From Candidatus Brocadiia bacterium (GTDB lineage: Bacteria; Planctomycetota; PUPC01): a stretch of DNA of 64,000 bases. How positions within the stretch are numbered: the stretch's first letter is position 1; each line of letters opens with the position of its first letter. Shown piece after piece: positions 13,200 to 61,223 of this stretch. The translations under genes and the position numbers were made by a program. The notes under the pieces are model-generated. The model did no database searches and was not told where the DNA came from. It saw only the letters and a list, made by a program, of their open reading frames with translations. Where the stretch lies: assembly GCA_030605345.1 (NCBI GenBank), contig JAUWIN010000001.1, positions 5,253 through 69,252 of the forward strand. The letters are read 5' to 3'.

Positions 13200-13250
13200 G
13201 TCTCTTCCGTTCTCGTCGGCAATACCAGACCCCGGCGTGATGCAAACAAT

Positions 13251-14438: not shown

Positions 14439-14563
14439 TGCTTAGGATTATTCTCGCCGCGATGCGCCAAGCCATCATATGATATGATCGTCTCGGCCAA
14501 TTCCCTTGCCACTATTGTCGTCAAGGTGTCATGCCGCCAAGACGTCATTAACAAGCAATGGAC

Positions 14564-15661: not shown

Positions 15662-15668
15662 TCCAACT

Positions 15669-16337: not shown

Positions 16338-16424
16338 TATGCTGAGGCCGGCGATCGCACACTCCCGCTTATCTGGTCGTTTATTGATTGTCCTTGTTGA
16401 TTGTGTCTAATGCCTCGTCCGCGG

Positions 16425-17147: not shown

Positions 17148-17157
17148 TGCGCTGTCC

Positions 17158-18435
17158 TCAATTAATAAACCTCCAGCGGGGAATAGGCCAGAAGACAAAG
17201 AACGCCTCGCCGATGAGGCTGGGTTGCTTGACCACGCCCCAGCTGCGGCTGTCGAAACTGTTGGGGCTGTTATCGCCGAGAACAAAATACTCGTCCGGGC
17301 CGAGTTTGAACGGCTGGTGGACCGCGAATCTCTGGTAGCGCCTGTTGGAGGTATAGAAGATGTCGCGCCAGAGCCGTACGTCGCGAACGGTCACGTCGCA
17401 GCCAGTGACGGCGAACTCGGCCCTGCTGATTTCGGTGCCGTGGAGTTGGGCTTCGGGGCCCGCCGGCACGCTGTCATCGAATGAGATGATTTCCTCGCCG
17501 TCCACCTCCAGTACAACACGCTGGTCAATGTTTGAGAATTCGACCAGATGTTCGCCATTTGCATTGAACGGTTCGGCGGCGTGGGCGGTTTCCTCGCCGT
17601 TGCACAGCAACCTGGGCGTCTCGCCCCGCTTGCCCAGTGGGAGGTAGGCGGCGTATTTGGTGTCGTCCTCGCGCAGACGGGCGATAATATACCCTGAGCC
17701 ACCGGTGTGCTTGAACCGCAAGGCCAGTTTGAGGTCTCCGACGATGTTGAACGGCCCCAAGCGTTGGCGGTTGGTAGCGCTTTTTCGGTCCGACTCCACT
17801 CGGTCTTCGATCTCGTCAAGATAACGGACACCGCATTCACGCGGGGGTGACGACCCGGAAAGTGTGATGGCGTCGCCACGCATGCGGACGGCGCCGTATT
17901 TGCCCCAGCGCTCGAAAAAAACCTCACCGCGCCTCTTCAGAATTTCGTCGTTGGCCACCGGCATGAGCAGTACGTCTTGGACATTTTCGGGCTTGTGTGA
18001 TATCCGGCTGTCGATGAACACGTCGCCGTTCCTGATCTCAATTTCCTGGCCCGGCAGCCCCACCAGCCGCTTCACATAATTGACGTAGTCCGCGCTGCCG
18101 GGGTATGTGACGGTTCCGTTTGGGTTCTGTTCAACGGCCTCGGCGACGAGGCGGGCGGCCGCGTCTTCCCGCGCACGCGCCCTGTAGAAATCGATACGGT
18201 GCTGGTCGATCTTGAAGACGATGATGTCCCACTGCTGGGGTGGATGTAGATCGAACTGGAACTTACTGACCAGGATGCGGTCGCCGTGGCTCTCACTCCC
18301 GATGAGCGTCGGCTCCATCGACGAGGTCGGGATGCGAAACGCCTCTACTACGTAGTGCCGCATGATCATCGCCAGGACAAAGGCGACCGCAAGGCTCTCG
18401 GCGTATTCCCTGACGGTCAGGCGCGTGAGTTTCAT
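17158..18435 (-). CDS. lepB: signal peptidase I (LepB) with an enlarged middle domain
   Basis: N-terminal TM segment, SMEPTL (box B, Ser nucleophile), VKRLVGLPGQ (box D, Lys) and GDNSPNSFDSRSWG (box E). Confidence 0.8.
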   Translation of the reverse strand: MKLTRLTVREYAESLAVAFVLAMIMRHYVVEAFRIPTSSMEPTLIGSESHGDRILVSKFQFDLHPPQQWDIIVFKIDQHRIDFYRARAREDAAARLVAEAVEQNPNGTVTYPGSADYVNYVKRLVGLPGQEIEIRNGDVFIDSRISHKPENVQDVLLMPVANDEILKRRGEVFFERWGKYGAVRMRGDAITLSGSSPPRECGVRYLDEIEDRVESDRKSATNRQRLGPFNIVGDLKLALRFKHTGGSGYIIARLREDDTKYAAYLPLGKRGETPRLLCNGEETAHAAEPFNANGEHLVEFSNIDQRVVLEVDGEEIISFDDSVPAGPEAQLHGTEISRAEFAVTGCDVTVRDVRLWRDIFYTSNRRYQRFAVHQPFKLGPDEYFVLGDNSPNSFDSRSWGVVKQPSLIGEAFFVFWPIPRWRFIN

Positions 18436-18697
18436 TCAGATTCCACGTATCCGGTTGACGTGTCGCGTTGCTATTATAGCCTTGTGGGCATAACTTGGCA
18501 ATTGCTTGAAACCGCAGACAGCTGTTCCAAAGATTCTGCGAACTTTGCCTGGGGACATGTCCCCTTTACGCCGAGCAGTTGAGCATACGTGTTCGGGGAT
18601 ATGACGGCTCGAAAATCAAATCGCGGGTTCCGCGGCAATCGTTTCAACAATCAATCCACTCTTTCCCCATCGGACACGTCCTAACCTTCTCCACGTG

Positions 18698-19762
18698 TTA
18701 CACGTCGGCGTAGGTCAGCCCTTGCCAACAGCCCTCGTCCTCTATCCGCTGGGCGATATTGACGTCATACGCGTCGGCGACCGGTTCGAGGACCCACGGC
18801 GAACTGTCCCAAACGTTCCGAAGGGTATTTCTGACGACGTCCAGAGCGGCGGGTGTCATCCTGCCCAACGGCCTGCGGGTCGGCCCCGCCGGCATACCCA
18901 GGCCGTTCATCAAAGCCTTGATAGCCAGTGGGTTCCGGAATTTGTCCTTGACCGACCGGATCGAGCCGTCCGGCATGGTGCGCTGGTCGTCAGAGACAAC
19001 AGTGACGATGCCGAAGAGCGGCTCGAGGGCGCTGTGGATTTGGGTTGCCCGGTCGCTGTTACCTTCAAGTGCGGCCTTGACCATCTGTGAGACCGGGCCG
19101 GGTACGATGTTGCTCATCACCGAAATGACCCCCTGCGCGCGGATGCGGTCATCCAGCATGATGTCTAGGGTAACGCCGTCGTCGCCGGAGAGGATATCGA
19201 ATTCGTCCCCCACGAGGCTGCGGGTGACGGCCATGCGTTTGGTGTCCCCCGTGGCTTCCTTGACGGCGGTAACGTTTGGATGTTCGGCGGCCAGGATGGC
19301 GAGGTCTTCCGGCGACAGCGCCGTGCCGCTTCGGCCGGGTATGACGTAGGGGATGACGGTGCAGTCGGGGCAGGCGGCGGCGACAACGCCGTGATATTCT
19401 CGCCGCAGTTCCAATGTCGAAGGCCCGTTGTAGTAGCAATCGACCAGGAGCAGGGCGTCGGCACCGGATCGTGCGGCGTGTTTGCTCCCCTGGACTGCCT
19501 CGTTGGTGGAGTTGCTGCCAGTGCCCGCGATGAGAAGACACCTGTCCGCGGTCGTTTTTATGGCGCCGTCTATGACTTGATTATGTTCCTCCCAAACCAG
19601 GGCCGGTGACTCGCCGGTCGTGCCGGTGGGAAGGAGCCCGCTGATACCCTGGGCTATCTGGAAGTTCATGTTTTTCTCGAACCCGGCCCAGTCCACTGAA
19701 CCGTCCGCGAGGAACGGAGTTACCAGAGCGGTGTGAGCACCTGCAAAGCTCTTTGGAGACAT
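18698..19762 (-). CDS. dihydrodipicolinate synthase/N-acetylneuraminate lyase family (DapA-family) enzyme with a ~60-aa C-terminal extension
   Basis: TGTTGESPALVWEEH and KEATGD (Schiff-base lysine region) place it in the DHDPS family. Start MSPKSF chosen. Confidence 0.7.
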   Translation of the reverse strand: MSPKSFAGAHTALVTPFLADGSVDWAGFEKNMNFQIAQGISGLLPTGTTGESPALVWEEHNQVIDGAIKTTADRCLLIAGTGSNSTNEAVQGSKHAARSGADALLLVDCYYNGPSTLELRREYHGVVAAACPDCTVIPYVIPGRSGTALSPEDLAILAAEHPNVTAVKEATGDTKRMAVTRSLVGDEFDILSGDDGVTLDIMLDDRIRAQGVISVMSNIVPGPVSQMVKAALEGNSDRATQIHSALEPLFGIVTVVSDDQRTMPDGSIRSVKDKFRNPLAIKALMNGLGMPAGPTRRPLGRMTPAALDVVRNTLRNVWDSSPWVLEPVADAYDVNIAQRIEDEGCWQGLTYADV

Positions 19763-19943
19763 GTCTTCCTCCTGCAACGATTGCTTTCGTGTTACAGCGA
19801 CATTCTACCTGTGAGCGGGTACCGCCGCAATCAAAATCGCGGTCACATGTTGCGTCTGAGGTGACGACAGCACGCGTTCTATAAAATCGAGGGCCGACTC
19901 GCGAGAAATTGGGGAACATCAGCACTACACAGCAACAGTGTAG

Positions 19944-20948
19944 TCACCATTTTTCGCCGAAGGTCCTAGCCATTATTTCCGCCGTGGCGTGGCGAAAAGT
20001 GTGATACATCCGAACATACTCGCATCCGGTGTTGGCGATCCGGCGCCTTTCACTCTCCCTCGGAAGGTAGTAATCGATGAGTTCAAGACACTCTTCGACC
20101 GACTGGAACCAGACAAGATGCTCATGGTTCGTGAAGTATTCCTCGAGGTTCGGAACGTACCGCGTCAGGAGAAACCCACCACATCCCAGGGTTAACCAGG
20201 TACGGTTGGAAAAGTACAGATCCAGATCGTTCTTCCCGTCAATCCCGATTATGATCTTCGTTGAGGCGCAGATTTTCCGGTACTGCTTCGGGTAGACATG
20301 TCGCCTAGCTGGGGCTTGTCGTAAAGCGCTTTCCCACCCCTGACCGTATAGCTTGAGTGAAAACCGCTCTGCAATGGCTCGTAAGAGCCCCGTCCGGTTC
20401 GGCATATTTGCGCTACCGATGAAAGCAACGTCTGCGAAGTAACCCGGGTCTGGCGAATCCGGGAAGTGATCTGTCGGATCACACCCGCCACGAATGTAGC
20501 TGACGTTACGGACCCCCATGCTTTTGAAATCAGGGACGTTGCCGCGAGCAGTCGTGAACATAATGGAACATCGACGGCCTAGCTCAATTAGCTCATGGCT
20601 GGCCGCATAAAATAGGTCTTGATAAAACAAGGCCGTGAGGACGCCATTTGGAACAGCGTCCAGCATATCAACAGTGGCGTCCTTGGAATAAATCAATACC
20701 ATATCAGGCTGGAAGCGACGCATACGCCAACATGTGTATCTTAGCCCGTTCTTGTTCCCGAGAAGGCGTGCGACTTTGTGTGTATTAATCCAGAGAACTC
20801 TGTGCCCGTTCTGTTGGAATCCACGTATTAAATGGGCGGTAACCCGGGTGTGACGCTTGTGTTTTGCGAACAAAAGGACGCGGCGCTCTTTGCGAGCAAC
20901 TGGAATGGAATCAATCGTGTACCGGGTGCGCATGGGAAAATCGTTCAT
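19944..20948 (-). CDS. CgeB-like glycosyltransferase (Glyco_trans_1_2 / DUF3880)
   Basis: C-terminal YFSNRTWLTLGCGGFLLTRYVPNLEEYF...LVWFQSVEECLELIDYYL matches the CgeB family pattern. Start uncertain (MNDFPM chosen). Confidence 0.6.
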   Translation of the reverse strand: MNDFPMRTRYTIDSIPVARKERRVLLFAKHKRHTRVTAHLIRGFQQNGHRVLWINTHKVARLLGNKNGLRYTCWRMRRFQPDMVLIYSKDATVDMLDAVPNGVLTALFYQDLFYAASHELIELGRRCSIMFTTARGNVPDFKSMGVRNVSYIRGGCDPTDHFPDSPDPGYFADVAFIGSANMPNRTGLLRAIAERFSLKLYGQGWESALRQAPARRHVYPKQYRKICASTKIIIGIDGKNDLDLYFSNRTWLTLGCGGFLLTRYVPNLEEYFTNHEHLVWFQSVEECLELIDYYLPRESERRRIANTGCEYVRMYHTFRHATAEIMARTFGEKW

Positions 20949-21405
20949 TCGGAAAACGCCAGATTGCCCGAAACCAAACCCGCGGAGGCTTTTTCGCGTG
21001 TTGGAAGATCGCCCCAGCCAGCACAGAGGTCTGGAGTCCGCAACCCTCGCAGCAATCCAATCCTCAGTTCGCCAGCCAAACCGCCTGCACTCCACACCGG
21101 GTCAACAAAACACATGAGGCCAACGGAGTATTCGCGACACGCTTCCTCCATGGCAAACCGTCCTTCAATCTCCAGCAAAGTTCGCGCATAGTCCTCCGTG
21201 GCCACGGCATACTACATCTGCTGACCGCTGGGGTCAAGTACGTAGCAAGGGGACGGCGTCAAGTAAACTGTGCAACCAGGATATGCGTCCGTTCAGCGCC
21301 AGATAGAAGTCGACCTTCTTTTTCCCAGCCAACTGCGCTTTTGCTGGTGAGGCGGCGGCCATGACAACTTGATTGCTGGCGGCTAGCTCCGTAGAATTGC
21401 GGCCG

Positions 21406-22207: not shown

Positions 22208-23218
22208 ATGACATCAAAAGAAATCGTGAGGCGGACGCTCGAGTTCAGCCGGCCCGAGCGGCTGGCACGGACGTTGCCTGAGCCGTGGGGGAATGACTTG
22301 TGCAGCGTGGGCGCCGATACGGACGACCTCGCCGGCGGCTGGAAGAAGGTAGGTGATGAGCGTTGGGAACGCACCGACGAGTGGGGCAATACCTGGGCAC
22401 GGGTCGAAGACCACTCCATGGGTGAAGTCGCAAAGGGCGCACTGGAGAACATCAACGCAGTCGAAGACCTCCCCATGCCGCCACTGAGCGACCCGGAACG
22501 CTACGAAAATGCGGCGAAAACCATCGCCGAAAACAACGAGCACTTCATCGCCGGCGGCCTGCCCGGCTTCACCTTCAGCATGGCTCGTAAAATCCGCCGG
22601 CTCGACCAATACATGATGGACCTCCACCTCCACCGCGACAAGATCGAAATCCTCCACGACCGCATCGACGAAGTTCTGCTCGCGATGGTCGAAAACTACG
22701 ACCGCATCGGATGTGATGCAATCATAACCGCCGAAGACTGGGGCACGCAACTTGGGCTGATGATACACCCGGACCTGTGGCGCGAGATATTCAAGCCGCG
22801 GTTCAAAAGAATTTGCGACGCAGCCAGGAAACACGGAATGAAAGTCCTGCTCCACTCTTGCGGCAGGATTACAGACGTCATCCCTGACATGATAGAGGTC
22901 GGCATCGACGCGCTACAATTCGACCAGCAGCAGGTGCACGGCATCGATAACCTGGCGAGATACGCCGGTCGGGTAACTTACTGGTGCCCGGTGGACATCC
23001 AGGCAGCGCTACAGAGCGGTGACGAGGCGGTGATCCGCGGATGGGCGCGCACGCTGGTCGAGAAGCTGTGGTGCGGCGGGAAGGGCGGCTTCATCGCTGA
23101 CTTCTACTCAGATGGGGTTTCCATCGGGGTCCCGCCCGAATGGCAGGCCTGGGCCTGCAACGAGTTCGTCAAGGCAGACGCGGAAAAAGGACGAGTGGTG
23201 CAGGAAAACGGGGGCTGA
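22208..23218 (+). CDS. uroporphyrinogen decarboxylase-like (URO-D/MtaA-fold) family protein, paralog 3
   Basis: KVLLHSCGRITDVIPDMIEVGIDALQFDQ matches the conserved core of paralogs 1 and 2. Start is 1 nt after the amidohydrolase stop. Confidence 0.7.
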   Translation: MTSKEIVRRTLEFSRPERLARTLPEPWGNDLCSVGADTDDLAGGWKKVGDERWERTDEWGNTWARVEDHSMGEVAKGALENINAVEDLPMPPLSDPERYENAAKTIAENNEHFIAGGLPGFTFSMARKIRRLDQYMMDLHLHRDKIEILHDRIDEVLLAMVENYDRIGCDAIITAEDWGTQLGLMIHPDLWREIFKPRFKRICDAARKHGMKVLLHSCGRITDVIPDMIEVGIDALQFDQQQVHGIDNLARYAGRVTYWCPVDIQAALQSGDEAVIRGWARTLVEKLWCGGKGGFIADFYSDGVSIGVPPEWQAWACNEFVKADAEKGRVVQENGG

Positions 23219-33882: not shown

Positions 33883-34360
33883 GCGACTGGCCGCATGGAA
33901 TCGGATAAGTAACAGCACGATTGTGACGACAGCATACTAATTTTCGCAGCGTGTTGCGCGTTCGGCCGGGGGGTGGGGCCGACACAACCGCCACTATCGT
34001 TCCGGACAGTCTCAATCGGGTGATGGTTCAGCAGACCGCGACGCGCGCCCCGTTGTTTGGCCAATCGCTTTGCTTTGTCGGCCTGGCCGTTTGCAGCTTA
34101 TTGCGGCTTTTCGTCGCTACTCCCTTTCGCCGCCGGGTTTTTGTCCCCGAGGGTAATGCTCACTTGAACCGGCTCGCCGGGGACAGCGGCGCATGAGAAT
34201 CCGCAGTGCCCGGACGGCTGAAAAATCACCCAATCTCTGACGTGGTCGGGCGCTGGGGCGCCGGTGAACCTGGCGACATAAGCACTGGCCGCGCAGTGCG
34301 TTATGTGCAGGCCGAAAAAGCAGCCTGGCAACCCCAAATGTAATTTTTTGTAAAACGAGC

Positions 34361-34424
34361 AAAATGCTACAGCGGTTGTAGCAATGCTACAGCATTTGTA
34401 GCACGTATAAGGGTAGAGGCACGG
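34361..34424 (+). promoter_or_regulatory. conserved palindrome-rich ~65-nt element, copy 1, in the leader of a PEP-CTERM gene
   Basis: AAAATGCTACAGCGGTTGTAGCAATGCTACAGCATTTGTAGCACGTATAAGGGTAGAGG is ~85% identical to a reverse-complement copy at 42108-42177. Contains the 7-1-7 palindrome TGTAGCAaTGCTACA. Confidence 0.5.
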
Positions 34425-34759
34425 TGTAAGTGTGCCCTATGAGAAAGATAACGCGCGGAGCGAGAGAGCGGGATCACAGACGCGCCTTTGCCCGACACGG
34501 GTAGCGGTGCGCCAGCGACCCTAACCGGGGCGGTGCGTAAGCCGCACCCGAGGAGGTGACGCGGAGCCATGCGCGCTCCAACCAACCGTGGCAGCCAGCG
34601 GCGAGCGAAAGGAGGTGATGCGAGGCAAGCACAACCGATGCAACGCCAGCCGTGAATTTGCGGGCCGCGGGCGAATTGGCGGCCATCACCCACTGGAGAC
34701 GGCGCTCATTGTGTTTGGCGCATAAGACTAATCTGCATTTTTGTCGGAGGGACGAGAAA

Positions 34760-35491
34760 ATGAAAAGAGTGAGTTTGCTGGCGGCGCTCGTGTTACTGCT
34801 CACGATTGCCCCGGCGCAGGCGGTGTCGATCCAAATGACCGACGCCACCCCGCACTACGTCAATACCAAGGAGAACTGCTGCACGCCGGCGGAATGCGAC
34901 ATCTGCAAGATCACCGGGTTCTACAACTCGACCCCGGCGGCCGCGGGAGGAAACACAGACTTCACCAACGCGTTCAATGCCTGGGAAGACGACAACGAGG
35001 GCTGGACAATCGTTAACGCCGGGGCCTTGTCGGGAACGTTTCAGATTACCACGTTCGACGCCAAGTTCGACGGGTGCAGCGGCGGGGTGGAGTTCCAGGT
35101 CACCTATGTACCCGGCGAGGGCGACCCAGCGGTGGGCGATACGAACTGGGCACAGGCGATCGACACCAACGACCCCTTGGGCGGCAAAACCAGCCCCTAC
35201 CTGGACATCGCGTCCGGCAAGGACGAGGACCCGCCGCTCTATCCCCACTCATACCCGGACGGGTATTTCTATGACTGGCCCAAGCGAGGATGCCCGGATG
35301 ACTGCGAAGAGACCGTGAGTTGGGAAGGTCACCTGTACTTGACCGCGATCGACCGCGCCGCCGAGAAGTTGTCCCTCTACGAAGGGATCGTATGGGGCTT
35401 CGGGCTGGACTGCGTCGTGCCCGAGCCGGCGATGCTGCCCCTGCTGGGGCTGGGCGTCGCGGCCGTGCTCAACCGCCGCCGGAGGAGGTAA
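34760..35491 (+). CDS. PEP-CTERM sorting domain-containing exported protein
   Basis: Signal peptide MKRVSLLAALVLLLTIAPAQA. C-terminus VPEPAMLPLLGLGVAAVLNRRRRR is the PEP motif plus TM helix plus Arg cluster. Confidence 0.75.
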   Translation: MKRVSLLAALVLLLTIAPAQAVSIQMTDATPHYVNTKENCCTPAECDICKITGFYNSTPAAAGGNTDFTNAFNAWEDDNEGWTIVNAGALSGTFQITTFDAKFDGCSGGVEFQVTYVPGEGDPAVGDTNWAQAIDTNDPLGGKTSPYLDIASGKDEDPPLYPHSYPDGYFYDWPKRGCPDDCEETVSWEGHLYLTAIDRAAEKLSLYEGIVWGFGLDCVVPEPAMLPLLGLGVAAVLNRRRRR

Positions 35492-40620: not shown

Positions 40621-41862
40621 TTACCTGACCAATGAGCGGCGCCGGGTCCGCCGGAGGAAGCGCAGCATAATCAAGCCGAATGTCAGGGTTACACAGGCGG
40701 GCGGTTCTGGCACTGCCTCGAACGCCCCCATGTCGGCCTGTCCGCCGTAAAAGCGGGCCTTGCCGTCGAGGTCGCTGAGAATCACGTATTCGGCGGTGCC
40801 GGGAGCTATTCCGTCAACCACCACGTCCATATCCGCTTGGAACCCGGTGCTGGGGTTGACGTTGACGTAGCGAAAATCGCCAGCATCCACGGTGGCGCCG
40901 CTGTTTATACAGGGACTGCCGACCGCCAGCCTGAAGTCTTGCAGGAGCGGGTCGGTGGTGATGCTGCCCCCGTTGTCGAAGTCGTATTCACCATCGAAGA
41001 CAAAACTACCGCCGGTCGCCTTGTAAATATCGCTGGAGGAATAAAATCGTTTGTTGGGCAGTTCATAGCCGGGTCGCTTGTCTGCGGTGAGTTCAACCGG
41101 CGTGCTCTCCGCGGTGACGATGCTGTTGAAGAGCTGAAGATACCCATCGGTATTCCACGGCTCCTCGTCGTTGGAGATACCAATGGCATTGTCTGCGATG
41201 GTGGAATGGACGATGTAGGTGCTGAATCCATCGGTCGTATCCACGTAGCGCAGACCGGTCCCGAATCCTTCGATGAGTGAATTCATCACATATACCCCAT
41301 GGCAGTGGTCGTCGATGTGGATGCCGGTGCGGGGGTCAGTGTCCTTGCCGTCACCGGAGAGGTGACAGTTCTTGAGAACTGACCCGGCGGCGAAAGTGCT
41401 GAAGTACACGGCGCCGTCAACCGCGAACCCGTCAATGGTTATCGTGGTCAGGTGAACGTGAAAGACCTTGTCGCCCGAGCCAGTGATATGGCTTTTGCTT
41501 GAGAGTTCCTGGTGGACGTTCACCGGGGCGGATTCGCCAGTCTCCCACTTCATCCCTCCCTGGACGGTGTTGACCGTGACTGTGTCGGAGGTGAGGTTAA
41601 TCTGCCCCCCGCTGACCTCGTCCACGTCCTCCTCATAATCACTGTGCACTCGGATGTCCCAGTCGCCGGAACCGTTCGTTTGGATCCACTCATAGACCGC
41701 GTCGATTCCGCTCAGTCCCTCGTCCTCCATCCACTTCCATGAGGGGTCGTTATTGACGGCCGGCTGCGGCCCGCCGACGTAGTAGTAATTCGTCGCCAAC
41801 GCCGGCGCCGAAGCGGCGAAAAGAAAGACAAGAACAGTGCCGGTCACGAATTGCAGACGCAT
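40621..41862 (-). CDS. PEP-CTERM sorting domain-containing protein with a right-handed beta-helix (pectate-lyase-like) region
   Basis: Signal peptide MRLQFVTGTVLVFLFAASAPALA; a beta-helix-like repeat region (NCHLSGDG...HIDDHCHGVYVMNSLIEG...IADNAIGIS); C-terminus EAVPEPPACVTLTFGLIMLRFLRRTRRR. Confidence 0.75.
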   Translation of the reverse strand: MRLQFVTGTVLVFLFAASAPALATNYYYVGGPQPAVNNDPSWKWMEDEGLSGIDAVYEWIQTNGSGDWDIRVHSDYEEDVDEVSGGQINLTSDTVTVNTVQGGMKWETGESAPVNVHQELSSKSHITGSGDKVFHVHLTTITIDGFAVDGAVYFSTFAAGSVLKNCHLSGDGKDTDPRTGIHIDDHCHGVYVMNSLIEGFGTGLRYVDTTDGFSTYIVHSTIADNAIGISNDEEPWNTDGYLQLFNSIVTAESTPVELTADKRPGYELPNKRFYSSSDIYKATGGSFVFDGEYDFDNGGSITTDPLLQDFRLAVGSPCINSGATVDAGDFRYVNVNPSTGFQADMDVVVDGIAPGTAEYVILSDLDGKARFYGGQADMGAFEAVPEPPACVTLTFGLIMLRFLRRTRRRSLVR

Positions 41863-42107: not shown

Positions 42108-42177
42108 CACCATCACCCTCTACTATAATACACGCTACAAATGCTGTAGCATTGCTACACGGCGTGTAGCAATTTTT
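42108..42177 (-). promoter_or_regulatory. conserved palindrome-rich ~65-nt element, copy 2, in the leader of the second PEP-CTERM gene
   Basis: Reverse complement AAAAATTGCTACACGCCGTGTAGCAATGCTACAGCATTTGTAGCGTGTATTATAGTAGAGGGTGATGG aligns with copy 1 (34361-34424) in the same orientation relative to the gene. Confidence 0.5.
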
Positions 42178-42612
42178 CTCCGGGTCGCGCGGCCCTGGCG
42201 TTTGTCTGGTCATAACCTAACCCAGCGCCAGGTCTTATGCCGTTTGCGCGCTGGTCCGTTGCATCCGCGTCCGCCCCCATTTTTTTTGTTTTTTCCTGCC
42301 CTGTTGTAGCGGACAGGTTCTCGAAGACATCTCGGACAACTTGTTCCGGTTCCGAAAACCCTCTTCAGTGCAGGGGAATGCCATGCCGACAGCGCCGAAA
42401 ATTTGGGAAAATCTGTGACTCGTAGTCAGACCGGCACTTAGTGCTGCTCTGTCAATTCTGCTTTCTGGGGTATGTGTTGCATGGAGCGTGGCTTCACGAG
42501 GACAATATGCGGGCCCGCGTTGAGCAAAACCGGCGAAGTTGACAAAGTAGCACTAACCGCGGGCCGGCCCGTCGGTCAATAGCCGAAATACAAAAATACT
42601 GAGCGGGCTCAG

Positions 42613-55800: not shown

Positions 55801-57127
55801 GTGCGGTGTCCTCGGGCGGGAGTGTGCTCCCGCCGGTGAGCGAGGGGTGGGCCTGAAAATCTGCGATAGAGATGGACACCCGACCATTCAGCGCGGCCGA
55901 CGTGCCGCTGATTTTCAGCCGGCCGGTTATACTTCCGCGGGAAGTGGCCGGCCCGCCGTCGGGCGGGGTCGGCATTCCGAGTGATTTCGCCGCTGCGCCG
56001 CCGGTCAATTTTGCCAGGTCGCAAGTGAAGTTCAGCGAACCGAGAAAGCTTTCGGCCCCGGCATCCTTCATTTCGAGACTGAACTCCCCCTCGGAGAAAG
56101 GTTCGGCCTTGAAAGTGATCCGTGCCGACAGATCCCGGCCTGGTATGTCCATGCTCGAACTCAGGTCCGCGGCGAATGTGAGGCCGTCGAACACAGTGTC
56201 ACCGGTGAGGTTGCCCACCGCCGTGACTTGGCCGGCGCGCTCGGCTGAGACGGAAATCTCTCCGTTGACGGACTCGACCGTCGCCGGCAGGCCCAGGGTC
56301 CCGCAGATACCGCCCAGGGGGAACCGCGTCAGGGTCGCGCTCAGGAGTTCGCCCATGACCTGCCGGGGTTCTATGGTGCCGTTGTGAAACAGGCGGGCGT
56401 TCCCCTTCATCAGGAAGGAGCCCTTGCTGGCGTTGCCGGTCACGCGGTAGCGCAATGGCCGGGCCAGCCCCGGAAGGTTGGCCTCGGCGGTGAGGTCTTT
56501 GAGCATCGTCTCGCGCCGGGTGTCGCCGAGGCAGTCCCGAAAGAGGAGTCGGCCGCCGTCCCACTTGAACTCGAGCGAAAGTTCCTTCAGCGGCTCGGTT
56601 TCTTTTCTCTCAGACTCAGACCCCAGCTCTTGCTTTTCTGGCTCCGGCTTCAGAAGGTCAGCGATGTTCAAAACCCAGCCGGCGCCCCGCTCGATTAGGA
56701 CCCGCGGCTCGGCGATTGCCACGCGCGCATGCACCTTCCTGCCCAGGCTCGCAAGAGCAGACAAGACATTGACCCGGACGTCGAGTTCCTTGACTCGAAT
56801 GAAGTCCTCGGCGCTAAAGCCTTCCCTGTTGGCGATTCTCAACCCTCCCACCTTGACCCCGCTGAAGAGGTCTAGGTCCAGCGATTCCACTGAGACTTTC
56901 CGTTTCAGCGCCGCCCCGGCGTAGCTGCAGAACATTCCCTTCAGCCGCGCCTCAGTAAAGATGAGCGGGAAAAGTATTGCCGCAAGTACAATCAGAGCGG
57001 CAAGGCCGCCAACCACATAAAGGGCGATCTTCACGAGCCGCCGGCGCCTTGTGGGCTTGGGCCGGCCCGGCTCCCCGGCGGCAGCCGCTGCCGCCCTAGC
57101 CCCACTGCTGGAACCGCGGTCTGTCAT
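52853..57127 (-). CDS. AsmA-family / TamB-like giant inner-membrane-anchored envelope biogenesis protein (1424 aa)
   Basis: N-terminal Arg-rich region plus a single TM anchor (IALYVVGGLAALIVLAAILFPLIF), then >1300 aa of beta-rich repetitive sequence typical of AsmA/TamB (DUF748/DUF490-like), and a C-terminal Lys/Glu-rich tail. Confidence 0.6.
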   Translation of the reverse strand: MTDRGSSSGARAAAAAAGEPGRPKPTRRRRLVKIALYVVGGLAALIVLAAILFPLIFTEARLKGMFCSYAGAALKRKVSVESLDLDLFSGVKVGGLRIANREGFSAEDFIRVKELDVRVNVLSALASLGRKVHARVAIAEPRVLIERGAGWVLNIADLLKPEPEKQELGSESERKETEPLKELSLEFKWDGGRLLFRDCLGDTRRETMLKDLTAEANLPGLARPLRYRVTGNASKGSFLMKGNARLFHNGTIEPRQVMGELLSATLTRFPLGGICGTLGLPATVESVNGEISVSAERAGQVTAVGNLTGDTVFDGLTFAADLSSSMDIPGRDLSARITFKAEPFSEGEFSLEMKDAGAESFLGSLNFTCDLAKLTGGAAAKSLGMPTPPDGGPATSRGSITGRLKISGTSAALNGRVSISIADFQAHPSLTGGSTLPPEDTALSAEAGLQFTPEGKLKELAIGSLEAKSSFLDARIVKGRVWSLSDLNSLGTDLSGYVRFSGRTFTSKFGKALGLPPLHDKLELKFSGKGEEGHAKVAAAAKLEREQGKPAPVRFSVAARLDARGAKIDARDCKVMLTAGEAEMPYTQVALIGSFSDLTGAPEAELSFSGTADLGALASRLSAYIDVLSEIKPQGQMAVADGSFSGTARKFRTKFKLAAKNLSIAGRSDPPQAGRAAAPVLDILSKGELVCQCDASADLAKKQVEIKTLDFKSSDLAASVSGTIDDYVALKGAVEVRLAAKTNKFGPLLAALKLIPEGIDTKGRLELAGRLDTGKGELELDNLEANTAYGRVTLKEQCTVSGLDIDKFRTEPLAAARKLSASASFEGVVFLDSLATLPEGLLPPQLKATGAVPFTLNVEQASPTKIAFSADATAASLEYGEFFAKPRAKKATVELGAALAENGGVDVSRLDVLLDGAELRLNGQVSDDFGTFVCQKLTAVIERPAMLTAMVPALREFELSGKLHLSASGRVPIDEVTAGSLGGAEFSGVVRLDQLAATSGRLGFTANGEIRMNRNSIDAAGLTVGASTRAPKSDTTLTFKELRITAAKKNAPILAHTDALHLAFSVSSPHVNAGHLLAALPEKANPGVRETTTAPSARTQFEFLKNHTVTGHLEVEKLTYEKHIVKNISTDLRMAGNKITTSKPFRAEVHQGTVRASLAADLNQPGIAHNGEIVIQKIDLNNVATAQLSLKDVFMGRVGGDVTWKGKGFAWDDITTNWTADMKFALNDGVILNFERSPLVAGLAGPILRHLGAAALPDNKYRYDQLDLDLHLRRGRVHADDLLLEGRNNLDLEIQKASVGLDGTIQMDVAVMAPTELLMNYVKREVVKQEAALAVVEKALEKKRPAFCTFGVSGRFDKPRIAADLTTFPKWVLSLVTDILRDPRSLIEGILKDRLKQHRDRDEKKEKKDEPADALKGLLRDLLH

Positions 57128-57562
57128 CCCATTCTCCTACAGGCTCCGGGGCAGGCGCCCCGGACGCCAGAGCAAAGGACACAAACGAGGGAGCGCCCGC
57201 GCCCTACATGCTCCAACCCTTCAGTATACCAAAATGGTCCGTCGGGTGCGTGAGGAATCTTCGTCGCTGGGAAGGGACGAAGGGAATGCGGCCAACTTGG
57301 TTGGCCCCATTCTCAGTGGTCTCCTGGAGAAGACGACCGAACATCGGCTCAACTGCGACGCCTGCGGCAAACCAGAGCCAAGCCGACCAGCCCAAGCCCC
57401 GGCGGCTCAGAGACGCCGCCTTCGCCACCGCCGATGAGCAGGCGTTCGAACAAGGACACGGCGGCCGAGGCGCCAACATCGTCGTACACGGTGCCGACAC
57501 AGGTCAGCATGTGGGTGTGAAGGGCGGCCCCTTTCTCCACGGGCGAAGCCCTTATAGCTCGG

Positions 57563-58378
57563 TTAGTTCCGCCGTCGGATGAGCGCGGCCCGCCTTGAGC
57601 GAAGTCCAAAGGCCAGAGCGCCCAACCCCAGCAGTGAGAGCGTGGCTGGCTCCGGGATGACCAGTTCAAAGTTGTCACAGTAGAGTTTGCTGCCATCGTC
57701 AAGGGCAAAGTCGCAACCCCAATCCCAGCCGCCGATCCTTAAGGTAAAGGTGCTACTGCCGTCCATGTCCCAATCGCCGACCGAGATGCTGCTGCCCAAT
57801 GCTTGAAATCCGGCGCCCTCGTTGTAATAGGAATGGAACGACGTTCCGTCCCACACCAGCTTCAGCGCTCCATCGCTGGCGGTCGCCGGGGCGTAATGCT
57901 CCTCCATCTCCTCTCCTTCGTCAGTGGTTTTCTCTATCCACCAGCCAAGATAGTACTCGTCTTCCCACCAGCCCCGGTCGAGGCCGAACCAGAGCCCGTC
58001 ACGGTAATCAGCGGTGTTCAGGACGACGACCTCCATTCCGTAGTCGTGATCGCTTTCGGGGCCACCGCCATAGTCGCCGACGTGTACGTCCAGCGTCACG
58101 GTCCAGCCGGTTCCGTACGGCGCGGGGGTTTTGAGCTTGTAGTAGGCCGCATTCTCCTCATCGGGCTCCAGCTCCCCCGGCGAAGTGTATTCCAGATGCT
58201 CATGGATTTCCGCTAGATCACCGTCCTCATCAGTACCATATTCCCACATCGCTGTGTTGCAGATGTTATCGTTGAAGTCATCGAACAAAGTTTGTCCCAC
58301 GGTAGGGCTCGCACACAATCCTGAGGCGACCAGAAGCATGACGATAAGGCACGGGGTGTTCTTCAAGGCTACGTTCAT
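57563..58378 (-). CDS. PEP-CTERM sorting domain-containing exported protein (acidic, Trp/Asp-rich)
   Basis: Signal peptide MNVALKNTPCLIVMLLVASGLCASP. C-terminus VIPEPATLSLLGLGALAFGLRSRRAALIRRR is the PEP-CTERM motif. Confidence 0.7.
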   Translation of the reverse strand: MNVALKNTPCLIVMLLVASGLCASPTVGQTLFDDFNDNICNTAMWEYGTDEDGDLAEIHEHLEYTSPGELEPDEENAAYYKLKTPAPYGTGWTVTLDVHVGDYGGGPESDHDYGMEVVVLNTADYRDGLWFGLDRGWWEDEYYLGWWIEKTTDEGEEMEEHYAPATASDGALKLVWDGTSFHSYYNEGAGFQALGSSISVGDWDMDGSSTFTLRIGGWDWGCDFALDDGSKLYCDNFELVIPEPATLSLLGLGALAFGLRSRRAALIRRRN

Positions 58379-58686
58379 TCTCCACTCTCCTTTCCGTTAG
58401 AGGGTTCAGGCTTCTCCAAGATACAGAACAGCGGGTGCAATTATTCCTGCCAGTTTCATCAGGTCGCAGCCATCACTCCCTTCAGTGATTCCTATTGGTC
58501 AGCCGTTATTCGTGCTCACGTTGCCTTACTGCCGACCTTTTCGGCTGATTTCACCATTCCATTGCAGCAAACTGCGTGCCAGGCGAAACCAAAATCGTAA
58601 GTATTTTGAGCGCGGGGAGTAAGCCCTTGATACATAAGGGCTTACACCACTTTGCCGGAGCCTCATACCCTGGCAGGACCGGCGCG

Positions 58687-58819
58687 GCGTTCCCGCCATG
58701 TTGCGAAAATCCAACGTAGTTTTGCCGGGATTTGGCGCAGAAACGCGGTAAGTCTCGCAGCAGCAAGGGATTATTCACGTGTTGCGAAAAGGCAACACGG
58801 GTCTGGTCAGTGTTGCGTT
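58687..58819. promoter_or_regulatory. array of three GTGTTGC-N6-GCAACAC type palindromes in the leader of the third PEP-CTERM gene
   Basis: catGTTGCgaaaatcCAACg (58687-58706), cacGTGTTGCgaaaagGCAACACgg (58766-58790), caGTGTTGCgttttgaCAACgg (58798-58819); 310-440 bp upstream of the start at 58378. Confidence 0.35.
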
Positions 58820-58973
58820 TTGACAACGGAGAACGCCGGGCTCGTACTACTCGCCGAGGGCTACTATCGTGCGGATGGGCGTCCGTGTGGCGTAGCGGCT
58901 CGCCTTCGCGTCAGGGCGGATTTCGGGGATCTCCCACCTCTGGCCCCGGCCTGTTCCCCTCACCAGCAGGTGT

Positions 58974-59234
58974 TCAACGCCGTCTTTTCGTGCATCGCGT
59001 CAGGACATCGTCTATGAGGCGTGAGATGGCGATTCTGAGCTTGCCCTCCGTCTCGTAGGTGCCATTCTTGATTTCTTTTCGTATCCGTTCGAGTCGCATG
59101 CTGCGCTCTCCTGCGCCACGGCCAGTTCCACCGGCCGACCGCGATTCTCCGCGTCTACGAGCGACGGGGCTGCTCGGCTTATCCCCCTCACTTGCGTTCC
59201 GCTTGCCGCGGCTCAAACCCACGTCAGCCTCCAA
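58974..59234 (-). CDS. FlgM-like anti-sigma-28 factor (tentative)
   Basis: C-terminal RLERIRKEIKNGTYETEGKLRIAISRLIDDV resembles the FlgM C-terminal helix pair (..IK.AI..G.Y.VD..KLA..L..); disordered Arg/Gly-rich N-terminus. Confidence 0.4.
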   Translation of the reverse strand: MEADVGLSRGKRNASEGDKPSSPVARRRGESRSAGGTGRGAGERSMRLERIRKEIKNGTYETEGKLRIAISRLIDDVLTRCTKRRR

Positions 59235-59572
59235 GAGTGCTCCGGCTCCAATACGTCCACAAGTCTCCCTTATTATATCGACCGATTGGCGGAGATACTT
59301 GAGCAGAATCGGCGAACAGGGGGGAAACGGGCGCCCATGGGCCTAACGCTTGTTGTCGCCTGGAGTTACGCCCCTGTGAACTCCAGTTCACCAATCGAAT
59401 CGACCCTGACGATCGGATTTTTTGCCCCGCGCCACTCCCCATCGGGCGGCTCGCCTTCGGCGGCGCTGCGCACAAAGCGGGTGAGAAGCTCAGGGATGCT
59501 GTCGCGTGAGCCACTGTCCAGCAGAACAACCTCGAGCGGCCGCCGCGCCTCCGCGGCCCGGTGCCTTCGTCA

Positions 59573-60121
59573 CTATTGTTCCACGTTGCCGATGTCGTCG
59601 TATCCACCGGACTGGCTGCTCTTGTTCGGCCCACACGCCCAGAGTTGATAAGATGCGAGGTTCAGAAAGACATCACCATTCTTGACCGGTTTCACCTCGA
59701 CGTCCTTCTGGTTCAACCTGTATTTTACCGGTCCGGCGGTATAGGCCGACGGATGGAAGAATATCCACGGATTTCCCCACGGGTCCGACAGTTCCTGGCG
59801 GCCATCCCCGTCTGTGTCAGTTAGCCACCCTTTCACGATGTGCTTCCTGACGAACGGGCCCCCGTTCTCCCTGGTCCGCAGGCACCCCAGCATGGCCTCG
59901 ATACCAGCGTTCTCCCCGGTCCCAAGTGACGGGGGATAGGTGCCAAACTGGCTCTGGTACTGTGAGAGCGCCGCCTGGAATATCCTCAACTGCTCCTTCG
60001 TCTCCTCCACACGGGCGCCTTCGAGGTGCGCCAGGAGCGCTGGGAACATCAACGATGCGAGAACGGCAATTACACCGATGACGACGAGAATTTCGATGAC
60101 GGTAAATGCGTGTTTTTTCAT
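59573..60121 (-). CDS. prepilin-type N-terminal cleavage/methylation domain protein (type II secretion pseudopilin / type IV pilin-like)
   Basis: MKKHAFTVIEILVVIGVIAVLASLMFPAL is a class III signal peptide with the conserved Glu5. Start MKKHAFT chosen over the longer track ORF. Confidence 0.6.
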   Translation of the reverse strand: MKKHAFTVIEILVVIGVIAVLASLMFPALLAHLEGARVEETKEQLRIFQAALSQYQSQFGTYPPSLGTGENAGIEAMLGCLRTRENGGPFVRKHIVKGWLTDTDGDGRQELSDPWGNPWIFFHPSAYTAGPVKYRLNQKDVEVKPVKNGDVFLNLASYQLWACGPNKSSQSGGYDDIGNVEQ

Positions 60122-60347
60122 TTTGAGCTCGTTATCCTGACGGCGTGAAAGATGCAATTCACTTTTCAGCCACAGATACCACGCCGACGGCCATGGCTGA
60201 GGCTGACCCAAAGGCCGCGGCTGCCTGTTCTACTATTCATCTACCAGAAGGCTCTGATTTGCCAGTATACCCCCTACGAGGCATGCCCGCAAGTTGCGGG
60301 TGGCGCTCCAGCGGCCCTCCCGGACATGTAGGATGCGCAGCCGGCTG

Positions 60348-61223
60348 TCACGAGAGGCGGTCGAGTCGCGAGATGACCTCGCCCAGGGTCAACCTAGCCC
60401 GGCGCGATGGGGCGCACGAGAGCAGCACCACGTCCTCCAGCGCAGGTGACGTGTCCCGGTTATAACGGCGCACGGAAGTTTCGAAGGGTTTGATTTGGAG
60501 GTCCACGGCCCCTCCGGTACCGGCGCCTGCAACGTTTGGTCGAATGGTGCGGCCGGTCAGCGCCCAAAACATTGTGGCGCCGAGTCCGAAGACGTCTGTG
60601 CGCTCGTCAACACCGGCTCCCACAAGTTGTTCCGGCGCCATGTACGAGGGACTGCCTGTCACCTGGGTAGCGTGTCCCTTCCGATGGCAGGCCAGGCCAA
60701 GGTCGAGGAGCCGGACCTCCATCTTTTCGTTCACCATGACATGATGCGGTTTGAAGTCGGCGTGCACGATGTCGTTGCGGTGCATGAACTGGAGGATGTC
60801 AGCCGCCTGGCGGTAAATGCTGATGAGTTGGTCGATGGAATACTCACGGTTTTTTCTCAGGTTCTCCCCGTCGATAAAGTCCATCACCAGGTGTAGTTCG
60901 TTGGCAAACAGCAACGCTTTGCGGCGGACGACGAGCCTGTGCATCCGTGGGATACCTGTGTGGCCGCTGTCGAGGTTCGTCAGGTGGCGGCCGATTTTCC
61001 ACTCGTTGCGTACCTGGGTGCGATACACCTTGAGCAGCTTAGCCTGGTCGCCGCCATATTCGGGGGAAGGGGCGAGCCCCTGTATCTCCCGGACGATTGC
61101 CGGAGTGACGCTCTTTATGGCAAGGTACTGGCCGGTCCGGTCGTCTTTGGCCTTGAAAACTACGCTACCGGCCCCGTTGCCTATCTGACCCAGTATGGTG
61201 ACGCCGGATATCTTCGGTGTCAT
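60348..61223 (-). CDS. Hanks-type serine/threonine protein kinase
   Basis: Gly loop ILGQIGNGAGSVVFKA, VAIK-like YLAIKSV, catalytic loop HADFKPHHVMV, DLGLA (DFG equivalent), SPSYMAPE (APE). Confidence 0.8.
   Translation of the reverse strand: MTPKISGVTILGQIGNGAGSVVFKAKDDRTGQYLAIKSVTPAIVREIQGLAPSPEYGGDQAKLLKVYRTQVRNEWKIGRHLTNLDSGHTGIPRMHRLVVRRKALLFANELHLVMDFIDGENLRKNREYSIDQLISIYRQAADILQFMHRNDIVHADFKPHHVMVNEKMEVRLLDLGLACHRKGHATQVTGSPSYMAPEQLVGAGVDERTDVFGLGATMFWALTGRTIRPNVAGAGTGGAVDLQIKPFETSVRRYNRDTSPALEDVVLLSCAPSRRARLTLGEVISRLDRLS

What the first reader, a model, noticed from the sequence alone, without database searches (positions are those of the whole stretch)
58687..58819. Different palindrome array (GTGTTGC-N6-GCAACAC x3) upstream of the third PEP-CTERM gene
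Three closely spaced inverted repeats with A- or U-rich 6-8 nt centres lie 310-440 bp upstream of the PEP-CTERM gene (57563-58378, - strand), again in a ~600-bp ORF-free leader. The half-site TGTtGC resembles the TGTaGC half-site of the other element, suggesting related regulator families recognising TGT-N-GC palindromes, or tandem RNA hairpins.
Basis: seen in the sequence. Interest (0 to 1): 0.5.

Follow-up and report, generated by a model that had tools for sequence, protein, structure and literature searches.

The report
Sigma-54 enhancer upstream of PEP-CTERM gene

Summary
Three copies of YGTTG-N8(A/T-rich core)-CAACR lie at 58699-58716, 58780-58797 and 58811-58828. They are the only matches in 64 kb, where 0.02 are expected.

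It lies 117 bp downstream of the nearest palindrome and 189 nt upstream of the ATG of the PEP-CTERM gene. An exact IHF consensus lies between the palindromes and the promoter. This is the classic layout of enhancer, bend site and -24/-12 promoter.

The same dyad recurs upstream of sigma-54 promoters in Planctomycetota genomes and in high-GC metagenome contigs. There it is helically phased at about 31-32 bp and conserved as a footprint in orthologous leaders. It sits in front of another PEP-CTERM gene, an EPS priming transferase, PilZ-like proteins and an adhesin-like protein.

RNA-hairpin readings are not supported, and neither is kinship with the TGTAGC element. The activator is not encoded in the window and remains unidentified.

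Verdict: a new member of a known kind, a TGT-N12-ACA enhancer for a sigma-54 activator. It parallels the proteobacterial PrsR "PEP-CTERM box" but is not a member of it.

The parts
58811..58828 (.). Enhancer (UAS) site 3, TGTTGCGTTTTGACAACG. It is promoter-distal, with its centre at about -264 from the predicted start, and is inverted relative to sites 1 and 2.
   Evidence: Exact match to GTTGNNWWWWNNCAAC. Scores 22.4 bits on a weight matrix built from other genomes. Lies 31 bp centre-to-centre from site 2, about 3 helical turns.
58778..58799 (.). Enhancer (UAS) site 2, a perfect palindrome CGTGTTGC-gaaaag-GCAACACG (core 58780-58797). Centre at about -233.
   Evidence: 0 mismatches. 24.7 of 27.5 bits.
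58699..58716 (.). Enhancer (UAS) site 1, TGTTGCGAAAATCCAACG. It is promoter-proximal, with its centre at about -152, and lies 81 bp from site 2.
   Evidence: (21.0 bits). Second-site spacings of 81 and 78 bp are also seen in unrelated loci L183 and L235.
58616..58648 (.). 13-bp-arm inverted repeat between the enhancer and the promoter, centred at about -77. Its role is unresolved: it could be a bend or architectural-protein site, a binding site for a second regulator, or an insulating hairpin for upstream read-through.
   Evidence: I3, 92% complementary. As RNA it folds at -20.1 kcal/mol, z -4.9. No T-run follows it.
58620..58632 (-). Exact IHF consensus TATCAAGGGCTTA (WATCAANNNNTTR), centred at about -71.
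   Evidence: Only 2 exact matches in the window, with 0.62 expected. This one falls in the 117-bp gap between site 1 and the promoter. It is not a conserved feature of related loci, so its function is inferred.
58567..58581 (-). Sigma-54 (-24/-12) promoter, TGGCACGCAGTTTGC.
   Evidence: Exact match to TGGCAC-N5-TTGC, with 0.16 exact matches expected in the whole window. It is intergenic and points at the PEP-CTERM gene. No sigma-70-like promoter was found in 57000-60400.
58379..58555 (-). Predicted 5' leader of about 177 nt, ending in a GGAGAG/GGAG Shine-Dalgarno sequence before the ATG.
   Evidence: The start site is inferred from the position of the GC element. No Rfam family matches. The fold is not unusual, z -1.07.
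57563..58378 (-). Target gene: a 271-aa secreted protein with a C-terminal PEP-CTERM sorting signal.
   Evidence: TIGR02595 scores 19.8 bits against a cutoff of 16. PF07589 scores 27.9 bits. A signal-peptide-like N-terminus is visible in the translation.

Best explanation
The three dyads form the upstream activator sequence (enhancer) of a sigma-54-dependent promoter that drives the PEP-CTERM gene 57563-58378(-).

Proposed mechanism: RNA polymerase carrying sigma-54 sits as a closed complex on TGGCACgcagtTTGC (58581-58567). [quoted passage not shown] Sites 2 and 3 lie on the same face of the helix, 31 bp apart. The dimers assemble into the active AAA+ ring when their signal arrives. The 117-bp spacer then loops, possibly helped by an IHF/HU-type protein at the TATCAAGGGCTTA site near -71, so that the ring touches sigma-54 and ATP hydrolysis opens the promoter.

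Expected result: expression of this surface protein is all-or-none and signal-dependent. It is probably co-regulated with other cell-surface and exopolysaccharide genes.

Shown by computation: the sequence elements, their geometry, and their recurrence and conservation elsewhere. Inferred: protein binding, looping, dependence on sigma-54, the identity of the activator and the nature of the signal.
For: (1) A perfect -24/-12 element lies in the right place and orientation. Only 0.16 exact matches are expected per window, which gives about 7e-4 for this 600-bp leader.

(2) The three sites are the only copies in 64 kb, against 0.02 expected. They lie 117-229 bp upstream of the promoter.

(3) An exact IHF consensus sits in the spacer.

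(4) A genome scan for tandem sites returned 20 Planctomycetota loci out of 120. Of these, 9 have an outward-facing sigma-54-like promoter within 20-350 bp, against 2.5 expected (P about 4e-4). In the other phyla the figure was 14 of 100 against 11 expected.

(5) Bases flanking the sites, which the search pattern did not constrain, are Y...R in 92% of cases.

(6) Site-to-site spacings are helically phased at 22-24, 30-33, 40-44 and 49-51 bp (P = 0.002 at a 10.5-bp period).

(7) Independent test: metagenome loci were retrieved using one site plus a promoter. A second site lies 18-120 bp further upstream in 11 of 86 non-redundant loci, against 0.16 expected (P about 2e-17). The spacings include 31, 32, 32, 32, 78 and 81 bp, matching the window's 31 and 81 bp.

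(8) Phylogenetic footprints: orthologous leaders are only 57-67% identical overall, yet they keep the dyad and TGGCAC..TTGC invariant.

(9) Recurrent targets share a theme. They include another PEP-CTERM protein (L178), an EPS polyprenyl glycosylphosphotransferase (L229), an autotransporter-repeat protein (L219) and PilZ-like proteins. This fits the link between sigma-54 and the bacterial exterior (PMC3162934) and the sigma-54 control of proteobacterial PEP-CTERM genes (PMC1569441).

(10) TGT/ACA inverted repeats with a 10-12 bp spacer are a documented class of UAS for Fis-type EBPs (PMC6615313).
Against: Within the window, the six-frame signature scan found no bEBP or rpoN motifs, and none of the roughly 40 large ORFs scanned is an exosortase. 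The rest of the source genome could not be reached, so the presence of sigma-54 and a cognate activator in this organism is assumed from relatives (rpoN in L077, a bEBP in L072).

The closest homologues of this PEP-CTERM gene (47% identity) have sigma-70-like leaders with neither dyads nor a -24/-12 element. The only close relative (L128) is identical in sequence. This particular promoter therefore has no footprint of its own.

About half of the Planctomycetota tandem-site loci show no canonical -24/-12 element, and at least three (L044, L113, L077) lie in coding sequence.

The site 1 to site 2 spacing of 81 bp is not an integral number of helical turns. The IHF consensus is not conserved in related loci.
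Confidence: 0.8

Rival explanations
1. The dyads are operators for a conventional, non-AAA+ dimeric transcription factor, for example a repressor or activator of a sigma-70 promoter. Alternatively they serve the upstream small ORF or an unrecognised divergent transcript, and their nearness to the -24/-12 match is coincidental.
For: Dyad symmetry alone does not identify the protein class. About half of the Planctomycetota tandem-site loci lack a canonical sigma-54 promoter nearby. No activator gene lies next to the array.
Against: No sigma-70-like promoter was found in 57000-60400 on either strand. The sites lie 320-450 bp from the ATG, which is too far for a classical operator. The association with outward-facing -24/-12 elements is significant. 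In orthologous leaders the dyad and the promoter are conserved together. Second-site enrichment was found in loci selected for having a sigma-54 promoter.
Confidence: 0.09
2. The palindromes act as RNA hairpins. They would form 3'-end or terminator structures of a transcript reading in from the upstream gene, or tandem regulatory stem-loops.
For: The 156-nt region folds better than shuffles on the minus strand (z -3.9). The middle dyad forms a -12 kcal/mol hairpin.
Against: The two outer dyads fold no better than shuffles (-4.9 and -3.9 kcal/mol). None is followed by a T-run. Across 37 related sites the arm positions beyond GTTG/CAAC pair only at chance level (46% and 32% against about 37.5%), so sequence is conserved and not pairing. 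The sites occur in both orientations. No Rfam family matches. The array lies upstream of the predicted start of the only supported gene.
Confidence: 0.04
3. The dyads are a non-functional coincidence or the remnant of a repeat, such as a small local duplication and inversion.
For: Site 3 is an inverted near-copy of site 2 (83% over 18 nt), so a local duplication could have generated part of the array. An imperfect 18-nt inverted repeat brackets the whole array (I2).
Against: 0.02 sites are expected and 3 are seen. A matrix from unrelated genomes scores all three near its maximum. The window leader shares nothing with the other loci beyond the sites themselves, which argues for functional constraint and against shared descent or a mobile element.
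Confidence: 0.03

Closest known systems
PrsR/PrsK/PrsT 'PEP-CTERM box' system of Proteobacteria (Haft et al. 2006, PMC1569441)
   Same: A PEP-CTERM gene in a single-gene unit with a long non-coding leader. A sigma-54 -24/-12 motif is preceded by an activator-binding motif that is sometimes repeated. The leader from promoter to ATG falls within the reported range (maximum 221 nt).
   Different: Motif 1 there is 17 nt long, ends in TTTACA and lies about 63 +/- 11 nt (maximum 92) upstream of the sigma-54 motif. Here the dyad is an 18-nt TGTTGC-N6-GCAACA, there is no TTTACA anywhere in the leader, and the nearest site is 117 nt away. The paper reports the box only in Proteobacteria and lists no PrsR, PrsK or PrsT for the planctomycete R. 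baltica. This locus works like that system but is not a member of it.
TGT-N10-12-ACA class of UAS for Fis-type-HTH enhancer-binding proteins (NifA, FhlA; 15 EBP groups in Clostridiales, PMC6615313)
   Same: Inverted TGT/ACA ends; here the spacing is TGT-N12-ACA. The sites lie upstream of a -24/-12 promoter and there are several per promoter.
   Different: The inner arm (TGTTGC) and the A/T-tract core are specific to this motif. NifA's classic site is TGT-N10-ACA (my own knowledge). No characterised EBP that I could find has this exact dyad (the searches were limited).
NtrC enhancer at glnAp2, and GlrR (QseF) sites at glmY (from my own knowledge, not checked here)
   Same: Two strong dyads about 3 helical turns apart, more than 100 bp upstream of a sigma-54 promoter (NtrC). 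Three TGTC-N10-GACA sites, which also have TGT-N12-ACA geometry, plus IHF sites (GlrR/glmY).
   Different: The half-site sequences differ (TGCACC or TGTC against TGTTGC). The targets differ, and so does the phylum.

Membership tests
Sigma-54 (-24/-12) promoter | GG and GC elements exactly 10 bp apart within TGGCAC-N5-TTGC | tested here: met
   TGGCACGCAGTTTGC at 58581-58567(-) has 0 mismatches. 0.16 exact matches are expected per window.
Sigma-54 (-24/-12) promoter | Intergenic, oriented towards a downstream gene, with no competing sigma-70 promoter | tested here: met
   It lies 189 nt upstream of the ATG at 58378 on the same strand. The sigma-70 scan found 0 sites in 57000-60400. The other exact match, at 22263, is inside a coding region.
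Sigma-54 (-24/-12) promoter | Transcription requires RpoN, and rpoN is present in the genome | not testable with these tools
   The six-frame signature scan found no RpoN-box motif in the window and the source genome could not be retrieved. A related Pirellulaceae locus, L077, encodes RpoN.
bEBP enhancer (UAS), TGT-N10-12-ACA class | Dyad-symmetric 16-18 bp site with TGT/ACA ends | tested here: met
   Site 2 is TGT-N12-ACA. Sites 1 and 3 are TGT-N12-ACG. In the family matrix the last base is A in 64% and G in 26% of sites.
bEBP enhancer (UAS), TGT-N10-12-ACA class | Located about 80-300 bp upstream of the -24/-12 element, with several sites on the same helical face | tested here: met
   The gaps to the promoter are 117, 198 and 229 bp. 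Sites 2 and 3 are 31 bp apart. The family-wide spacing is phased (P = 0.002). Sites 1 and 2 are 81 bp apart, which is out of phase.
bEBP enhancer (UAS), TGT-N10-12-ACA class | The same motif recurs upstream of other sigma-54 promoters and is conserved in orthologous leaders | tested here: met
   This was shown in other genomes and metagenomes, not in the source genome.
bEBP enhancer (UAS), TGT-N10-12-ACA class | Bound by a cognate AAA+ activator | not testable with these tools
   No bEBP is encoded in the window. In L072 (Sedimentisphaerales) three sites sit beside an AtoS/AtoC-like kinase-regulator operon. In L043, L161, L168, L171 and L203 a bEBP gene directly adjoins a site.
PrsR 'PEP-CTERM box' (Haft 2006) | Motif 1: 17 nt ending in TTTACA | tested here: not met
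   No TTTACA occurs on either strand of 58379-58974. The motif description comes from PMC1569441; the logo itself was not available.
PrsR 'PEP-CTERM box' (Haft 2006) | Spacer of about 63 nt (32-92) between motif 1 and the sigma-54 motif | tested here: not met
   The nearest dyad is 117 nt from the promoter.
PrsR 'PEP-CTERM box' (Haft 2006) | Genome encodes PrsR (TIGR02915), PrsK and PrsT | not testable with these tools
   None was found in the window. The bEBP of the related locus L072 scores 401 bits on TIGR02915, below the cutoff of 502.6.
IHF-assisted looping | WATCAANNNNTTR between the UAS and the promoter | tested here: inconclusive
   The window has an exact match at 58632-58620(-). No exact match occurs in the spacers of 24 related high-GC loci, which show only A/T enrichment of about 50% against a background of about 36%.
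Intrinsic terminator / structured RNA | Stable stem followed by a U-run, or covarying stems | tested here: not met

The most novel reading that the evidence does not exclude
YGTTG-N8-CAACR may be the enhancer of an undescribed sigma-54 regulon that is widespread in Planctomycetota. The regulon would control cell-surface and matrix functions: PEP-CTERM proteins, EPS priming glycosyltransferase, PilZ proteins, adhesin-like proteins, a conserved small coiled-coil protein and a GNAT/FemAB-like enzyme. This would be an independently evolved counterpart of the proteobacterial PrsR/PEP-CTERM box, which Haft et al. (2006) reported only in Proteobacteria. A related dyad also precedes sigma-54 promoters in low-GC contigs in front of a recurrent 492-aa protein that I did not scan, and which I take, from memory of its sequence, to be a 4-hydroxybutyryl-CoA dehydratase. 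That hints at an old and widely reused recognition specificity.
Probability: 0.45. Interest if true: 0.5.

Novelty: new member of a known kind. Interest (0 to 1): 0.4.

Why it matters
PEP-CTERM proteins are abundant surface and matrix proteins of environmental bacteria, and outside Proteobacteria their regulation is essentially unknown. Haft et al. (2006) stated that further regulatory proteins and DNA motifs remained to be discovered for PEP-CTERM genes with long leaders.

This locus gives a concrete and testable promoter architecture for a Phycisphaerae-type planctomycete. It also gives a dyad motif that can be used to reconstruct a sigma-54 regulon in Planctomycetota and to fish for the cognate activator.

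Within this genome, different PEP-CTERM genes appear to be wired to different regulators. This one has a sigma-54 enhancer, while the other two leaders carry a TGTAGC repeat block next to a -10-like box. As a mechanism, however, it is textbook enhancer-dependent transcription.

Tried and rejected
- **Footprinting through orthologues failed.** The protein has only 8 homologues and the best non-self match is 47% identical. Their leaders (L001, L005) look sigma-70-like. The one close relative, L128, is identical in sequence. The source contig could not be retrieved.
- **Rfam found nothing.** The scan covered 57000-60500 at E <= 1.
- **No activator in the window.** A scan for GAFTGA, Walker A and RpoN-box signatures found none.
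- **No regulator or exosortase among the window ORFs scanned.** About 40 large ORFs were scanned: a polysaccharide and LPS glycosyltransferase cluster at about 10-21 kb, housekeeping genes, a pseudopilin-like protein, a Ser/Thr kinase and an AsmA-like protein.
- **FlgM idea dropped.** I first read the 86-aa ORF at 58974-59234(-) as FlgM-like, but Pfam and NCBIfam give no support.
- **Second sigma-54 match rejected.** The exact match at 22263(+) lies inside a coding region that starts at 22209.
- **Some genome-scan hits rejected.** L044, L113 and L077 have their sites in coding sequence, and many hits from AT-rich genomes are simple repeats.
- **Literature searches found no prior description.** Searches for the dyad sequence and for planctomycete sigma-54 enhancers gave nothing specific.
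- **The activator could not be identified.** I compared the helix-turn-helix tails of bEBPs encoded next to sites, but they carry only the generic Fis-type pattern.
- **IHF is not a family-wide feature**.

Full report
**1. What is in the sequence**

The region upstream of the minus-strand gene 57563-58378 contains three dyads:
- 58699-58716: TGTTGCgaaaatCCAACG
- 58780-58797: TGTTGCgaaaagGCAACA, extendable to a perfect 8-bp-arm palindrome at 58778-58799
- 58811-58828: TGTTGCgttttgACAACG

The outer two have 2 mismatches each.

The shared core GTTG-NN-WWWW-NN-CAAC matches exactly three times in 64 kb, all here, against 0.02 expected. Site 3 is an inverted copy relative to sites 1 and 2, including the A-tract. 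The gene is a 271-aa secreted protein with a PEP-CTERM sorting signal.

**2.

Between the dyads and the gene, on the gene's strand, lies TGGCACGCAGTTTGC (58581-58567). This is an exact sigma-54 -24/-12 promoter. Only 0.16 exact matches are expected in the whole window. The only other exact match (22263) is inside a coding region. A sigma-70 consensus scan finds nothing in 57000-60400.

Placing +1 about 12 nt after the GC element gives a leader of about 177 nt and dyad centres at -152, -233 and -264.

In the 117-bp gap between site 1 and the promoter there is an exact IHF consensus, TATCAAGGGCTTA at 58632-58620. It is one of only two in the window. It is embedded in a strong 13-bp-arm inverted repeat at 58616-58648. 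Enhancer, bend site and -24/-12 promoter together make the canonical anatomy of enhancer-dependent transcription.

**3. Evidence from elsewhere**

Orthologue footprinting was impossible. The nearest homologues are 47% identical and have sigma-70-like leaders. The one close relative is identical in sequence.

I therefore asked whether the dyad recurs with sigma-54 promoters. A scan of species-representative genomes for two dyads 5-35 bp apart stopped at its 120-locus limit. Twenty of the 120 loci were Planctomycetota. That looks enriched for a phylum that I believe makes up only a few percent of species, though I did not test this.

In those 20 loci, 9 have an outward-facing sigma-54-like element within 20-350 bp, against 2.5 expected (P about 4e-4). 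In other phyla there is no excess at 2 mismatches. Examples are L073 (Phycisphaerae), L098, L089, L063/L110, L104 and L093.

Three features that the search pattern did not constrain behave as expected for a protein-binding site:
- The flanking bases are Y...R in 92% of sites, extending the motif to YGTTG-N8-CAACR.
- Site-to-site spacings cluster at 22-24, 30-33, 40-44 and 49-51 bp, which is helical phasing (P = 0.002).
- The inner arm positions pair only at chance level, so sequence is conserved and not a stem.

A matrix built from these foreign sites scores the window's three sites at 21-24.7 of 27.5 bits. The next best score in the window is 12.7.

**4. An independent test**

A metagenome scan for one dyad followed 88-118 nt later by TGGCAC-N5-TTGC also stopped at 120 loci. 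A second dyad, which the pattern did not require, lies 18-120 bp further upstream in 11 of 86 non-redundant loci, against 0.16 expected (P about 2e-17). The spacings are 31, 32, 32, 32, 78 and 81 bp, the same as the window's 31 and 81 bp.

High-GC contigs such as L178, L173, L162, L240 and L183 reproduce the window's architecture almost exactly. Alignments of orthologous leaders are only 57-67% identical overall, yet the invariant blocks are the dyad and the TGGCAC..TTGC promoter. These leaders precede a GNAT/Acetyltransf_6 gene in one alignment and a small coiled-coil protein with '..DLEATRREN.YL..' in the other.

The window leader shares nothing with these loci apart from the sites themselves. 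The resemblance therefore reflects functional constraint and not common descent or a mobile repeat.

**5. What the regulon looks like**

Genes behind the dyad-plus-promoter module include:
- another PEP-CTERM protein (L178, TIGR02595)
- an EPS polyprenyl glycosylphosphotransferase (L229)
- an autotransporter-repeat protein (L219)
- PilZ-like proteins (L240, and by sequence resemblance L199 and L248)
- a protein with a C-terminus typical of outer-membrane beta-barrels (L188)
- GNAT/FemAB-like enzymes
- the small coiled-coil protein
- FtsH (L083)
- a sigma-70-family factor (L093)

The dominant theme is the cell surface and matrix. This fits the proposal that sigma-54 governs the bacterial exterior (PMC3162934) and the predicted sigma-54 promoters in Planctomycetota (PMC12316311).

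In L072 (Sedimentisphaerales) three dyads lie between a permease gene and an AtoS/AtoC-like kinase plus NtrC-type regulator operon. In several low- and mid-GC contigs a bEBP gene directly adjoins a site. The activator for the window's promoter is not encoded within the 64 kb and could not be identified.

**6. Rivals**

RNA hairpins or terminators: only the middle dyad is a good hairpin. The outer two equal shuffles, no T-runs follow, no Rfam family matches, and there is no pairing conservation.

A classical operator for a sigma-70 promoter: there is no such promoter, and the sites are 320-450 bp from the ATG.

Chance or duplication: excluded by the statistics and by the foreign-matrix scores.

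Kinship with the TGTAGC-N3-GCTACA element of the other two leaders: that element is a contiguous GCTACA/TGTAGC repeat block abutting a -10-like box, with no -24/-12 element nearby. It is a different regulatory design.

**7. Comparison with what is known**

Functionally this parallels the proteobacterial PEP-CTERM box. There, a 17-nt motif ending in TTTACA lies about 63 nt upstream of a sigma-54 motif and co-occurs with PrsR, PrsK and PrsT. It was reported only in Proteobacteria (PMC1569441).

Membership fails on the two features I could test. There is no TTTACA, and the spacer is 117 nt.

The dyad does fall into the documented TGT-N10-12-ACA class of UAS for Fis-type enhancer-binding proteins, which includes NifA, FhlA and 15 Clostridiales EBP groups (PMC6615313). 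I found no description of this specific dyad or of a planctomycete PEP-CTERM enhancer. The searches were limited, and the library lacks many subscription papers.

**8. Verdict**

The best explanation is a three-site enhancer for an NtrC-family activator acting on a sigma-54 promoter of a PEP-CTERM gene (confidence about 0.8).

Caveats:
- Nothing here is experimental.
- The presence of sigma-54 and the activator in the source genome is assumed.
- Both public scans were truncated samples.
- The roles of the IHF-like site and the 58616-58648 repeat are unresolved.

It is a new member of a known kind. It is moderately interesting, because it extends sigma-54 control of PEP-CTERM proteins beyond Proteobacteria and provides a usable motif.

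Noticed in passing
window 58616-58648: A strong inverted repeat, GGAGTAAGCCCTT-N7-AAGGGCTTACACC, lies between the enhancer and the sigma-54 promoter and contains the IHF consensus. As RNA it folds at -20.1 kcal/mol (z -4.9). No T-run follows it. It could be an architectural-protein site, a site for a second regulator, or an insulator against read-through.
   Followed up: partly
window 58675-58692 and 58831-58848: An imperfect 18-nt inverted repeat (78% complementary; core CGGCGTTC/GAACGCCG) brackets the whole three-site array. I have no explanation for it and it may be chance.
   Followed up: no
window 34355-34410 and 42125-42180: The 'other element' is a nearly identical block of alternating GCTACA/TGTAGC repeats (GCTACA-N5-TGTAGCAATGCTACAGCATTTGTAGC) directly followed by TATAAG/TATTAT and GTAGAGG. 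It sits upstream of the PEP-CTERM gene 34652-35491(+) and of the choice-of-anchor-Q protein gene 40621-41862(-). It looks like a shared sigma-70-type promoter with an operator. No -24/-12 element is present.
   Followed up: partly
window 22263-22277 (+): A second exact TGGCAC-N5-TTGC match lies 55 nt inside a coding region that starts at 22209. I took it as chance and did not examine an internal promoter.
   Followed up: no
L073:2342-2590, L042 ~5800-6065, L133, L173: A conserved small protein of about 83-88 aa with a coiled-coil-like region and the motif '(I/L)KY..(F/L)D(L/I)EATRREN.YL' sits behind the same dyad-plus-sigma-54 module in four different Phycisphaerae-type contigs. It has no NCBIfam match (Pfam was not searched). 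It may be a core member of the regulon.
   Followed up: partly
L135, L150, L159, L191, L210, L225, L168, L169, L198, L211 (low-GC metagenome contigs): TGTTGCATTTTTGCAACA followed about 100 nt later by TGGCACGGCTTTTGC precedes a 492-aa protein in many low-GC contigs. I did not scan this protein, but from its sequence I take it to be a 4-hydroxybutyryl-CoA dehydratase. In L168 an adjacent bEBP ends in '...GNVRAAAKSLGIDASTFVRKRQKY'. This is a related dyad used by a different lineage and pathway.
   Followed up: no
L044:681-729 and L113:2185-2233: Tandem matches to the dyad pattern fall inside the N-terminal coding region of a conserved Planctomycetaceae secreted protein ('...NRN.L.ADVLFFGNN...'). 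This is a coding-sequence false positive worth remembering when the motif is used for genome scans.
   Followed up: yes
window 10700-21100: A cluster of GT4/GT2 glycosyltransferases, an RfaP/Kdo-kinase-like protein, an LptB-like ABC ATPase and signal peptidase I forms a polysaccharide and LPS biosynthesis neighbourhood. No exosortase, bEBP or rpoN turned up in the window (signature scan plus about 40 ORFs scanned).
   Followed up: partly
window 58974-59234 (-): An 86-aa ORF ending '...RIRKEIKNGTYETEGKLRIAISRLIDDVL' reminded me of the C-terminus of anti-sigma-28 FlgM. It has no Pfam or NCBIfam match, and whether it is a gene is open. If it is not, the non-coding leader extends to about 1.2 kb.
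   Followed up: partly
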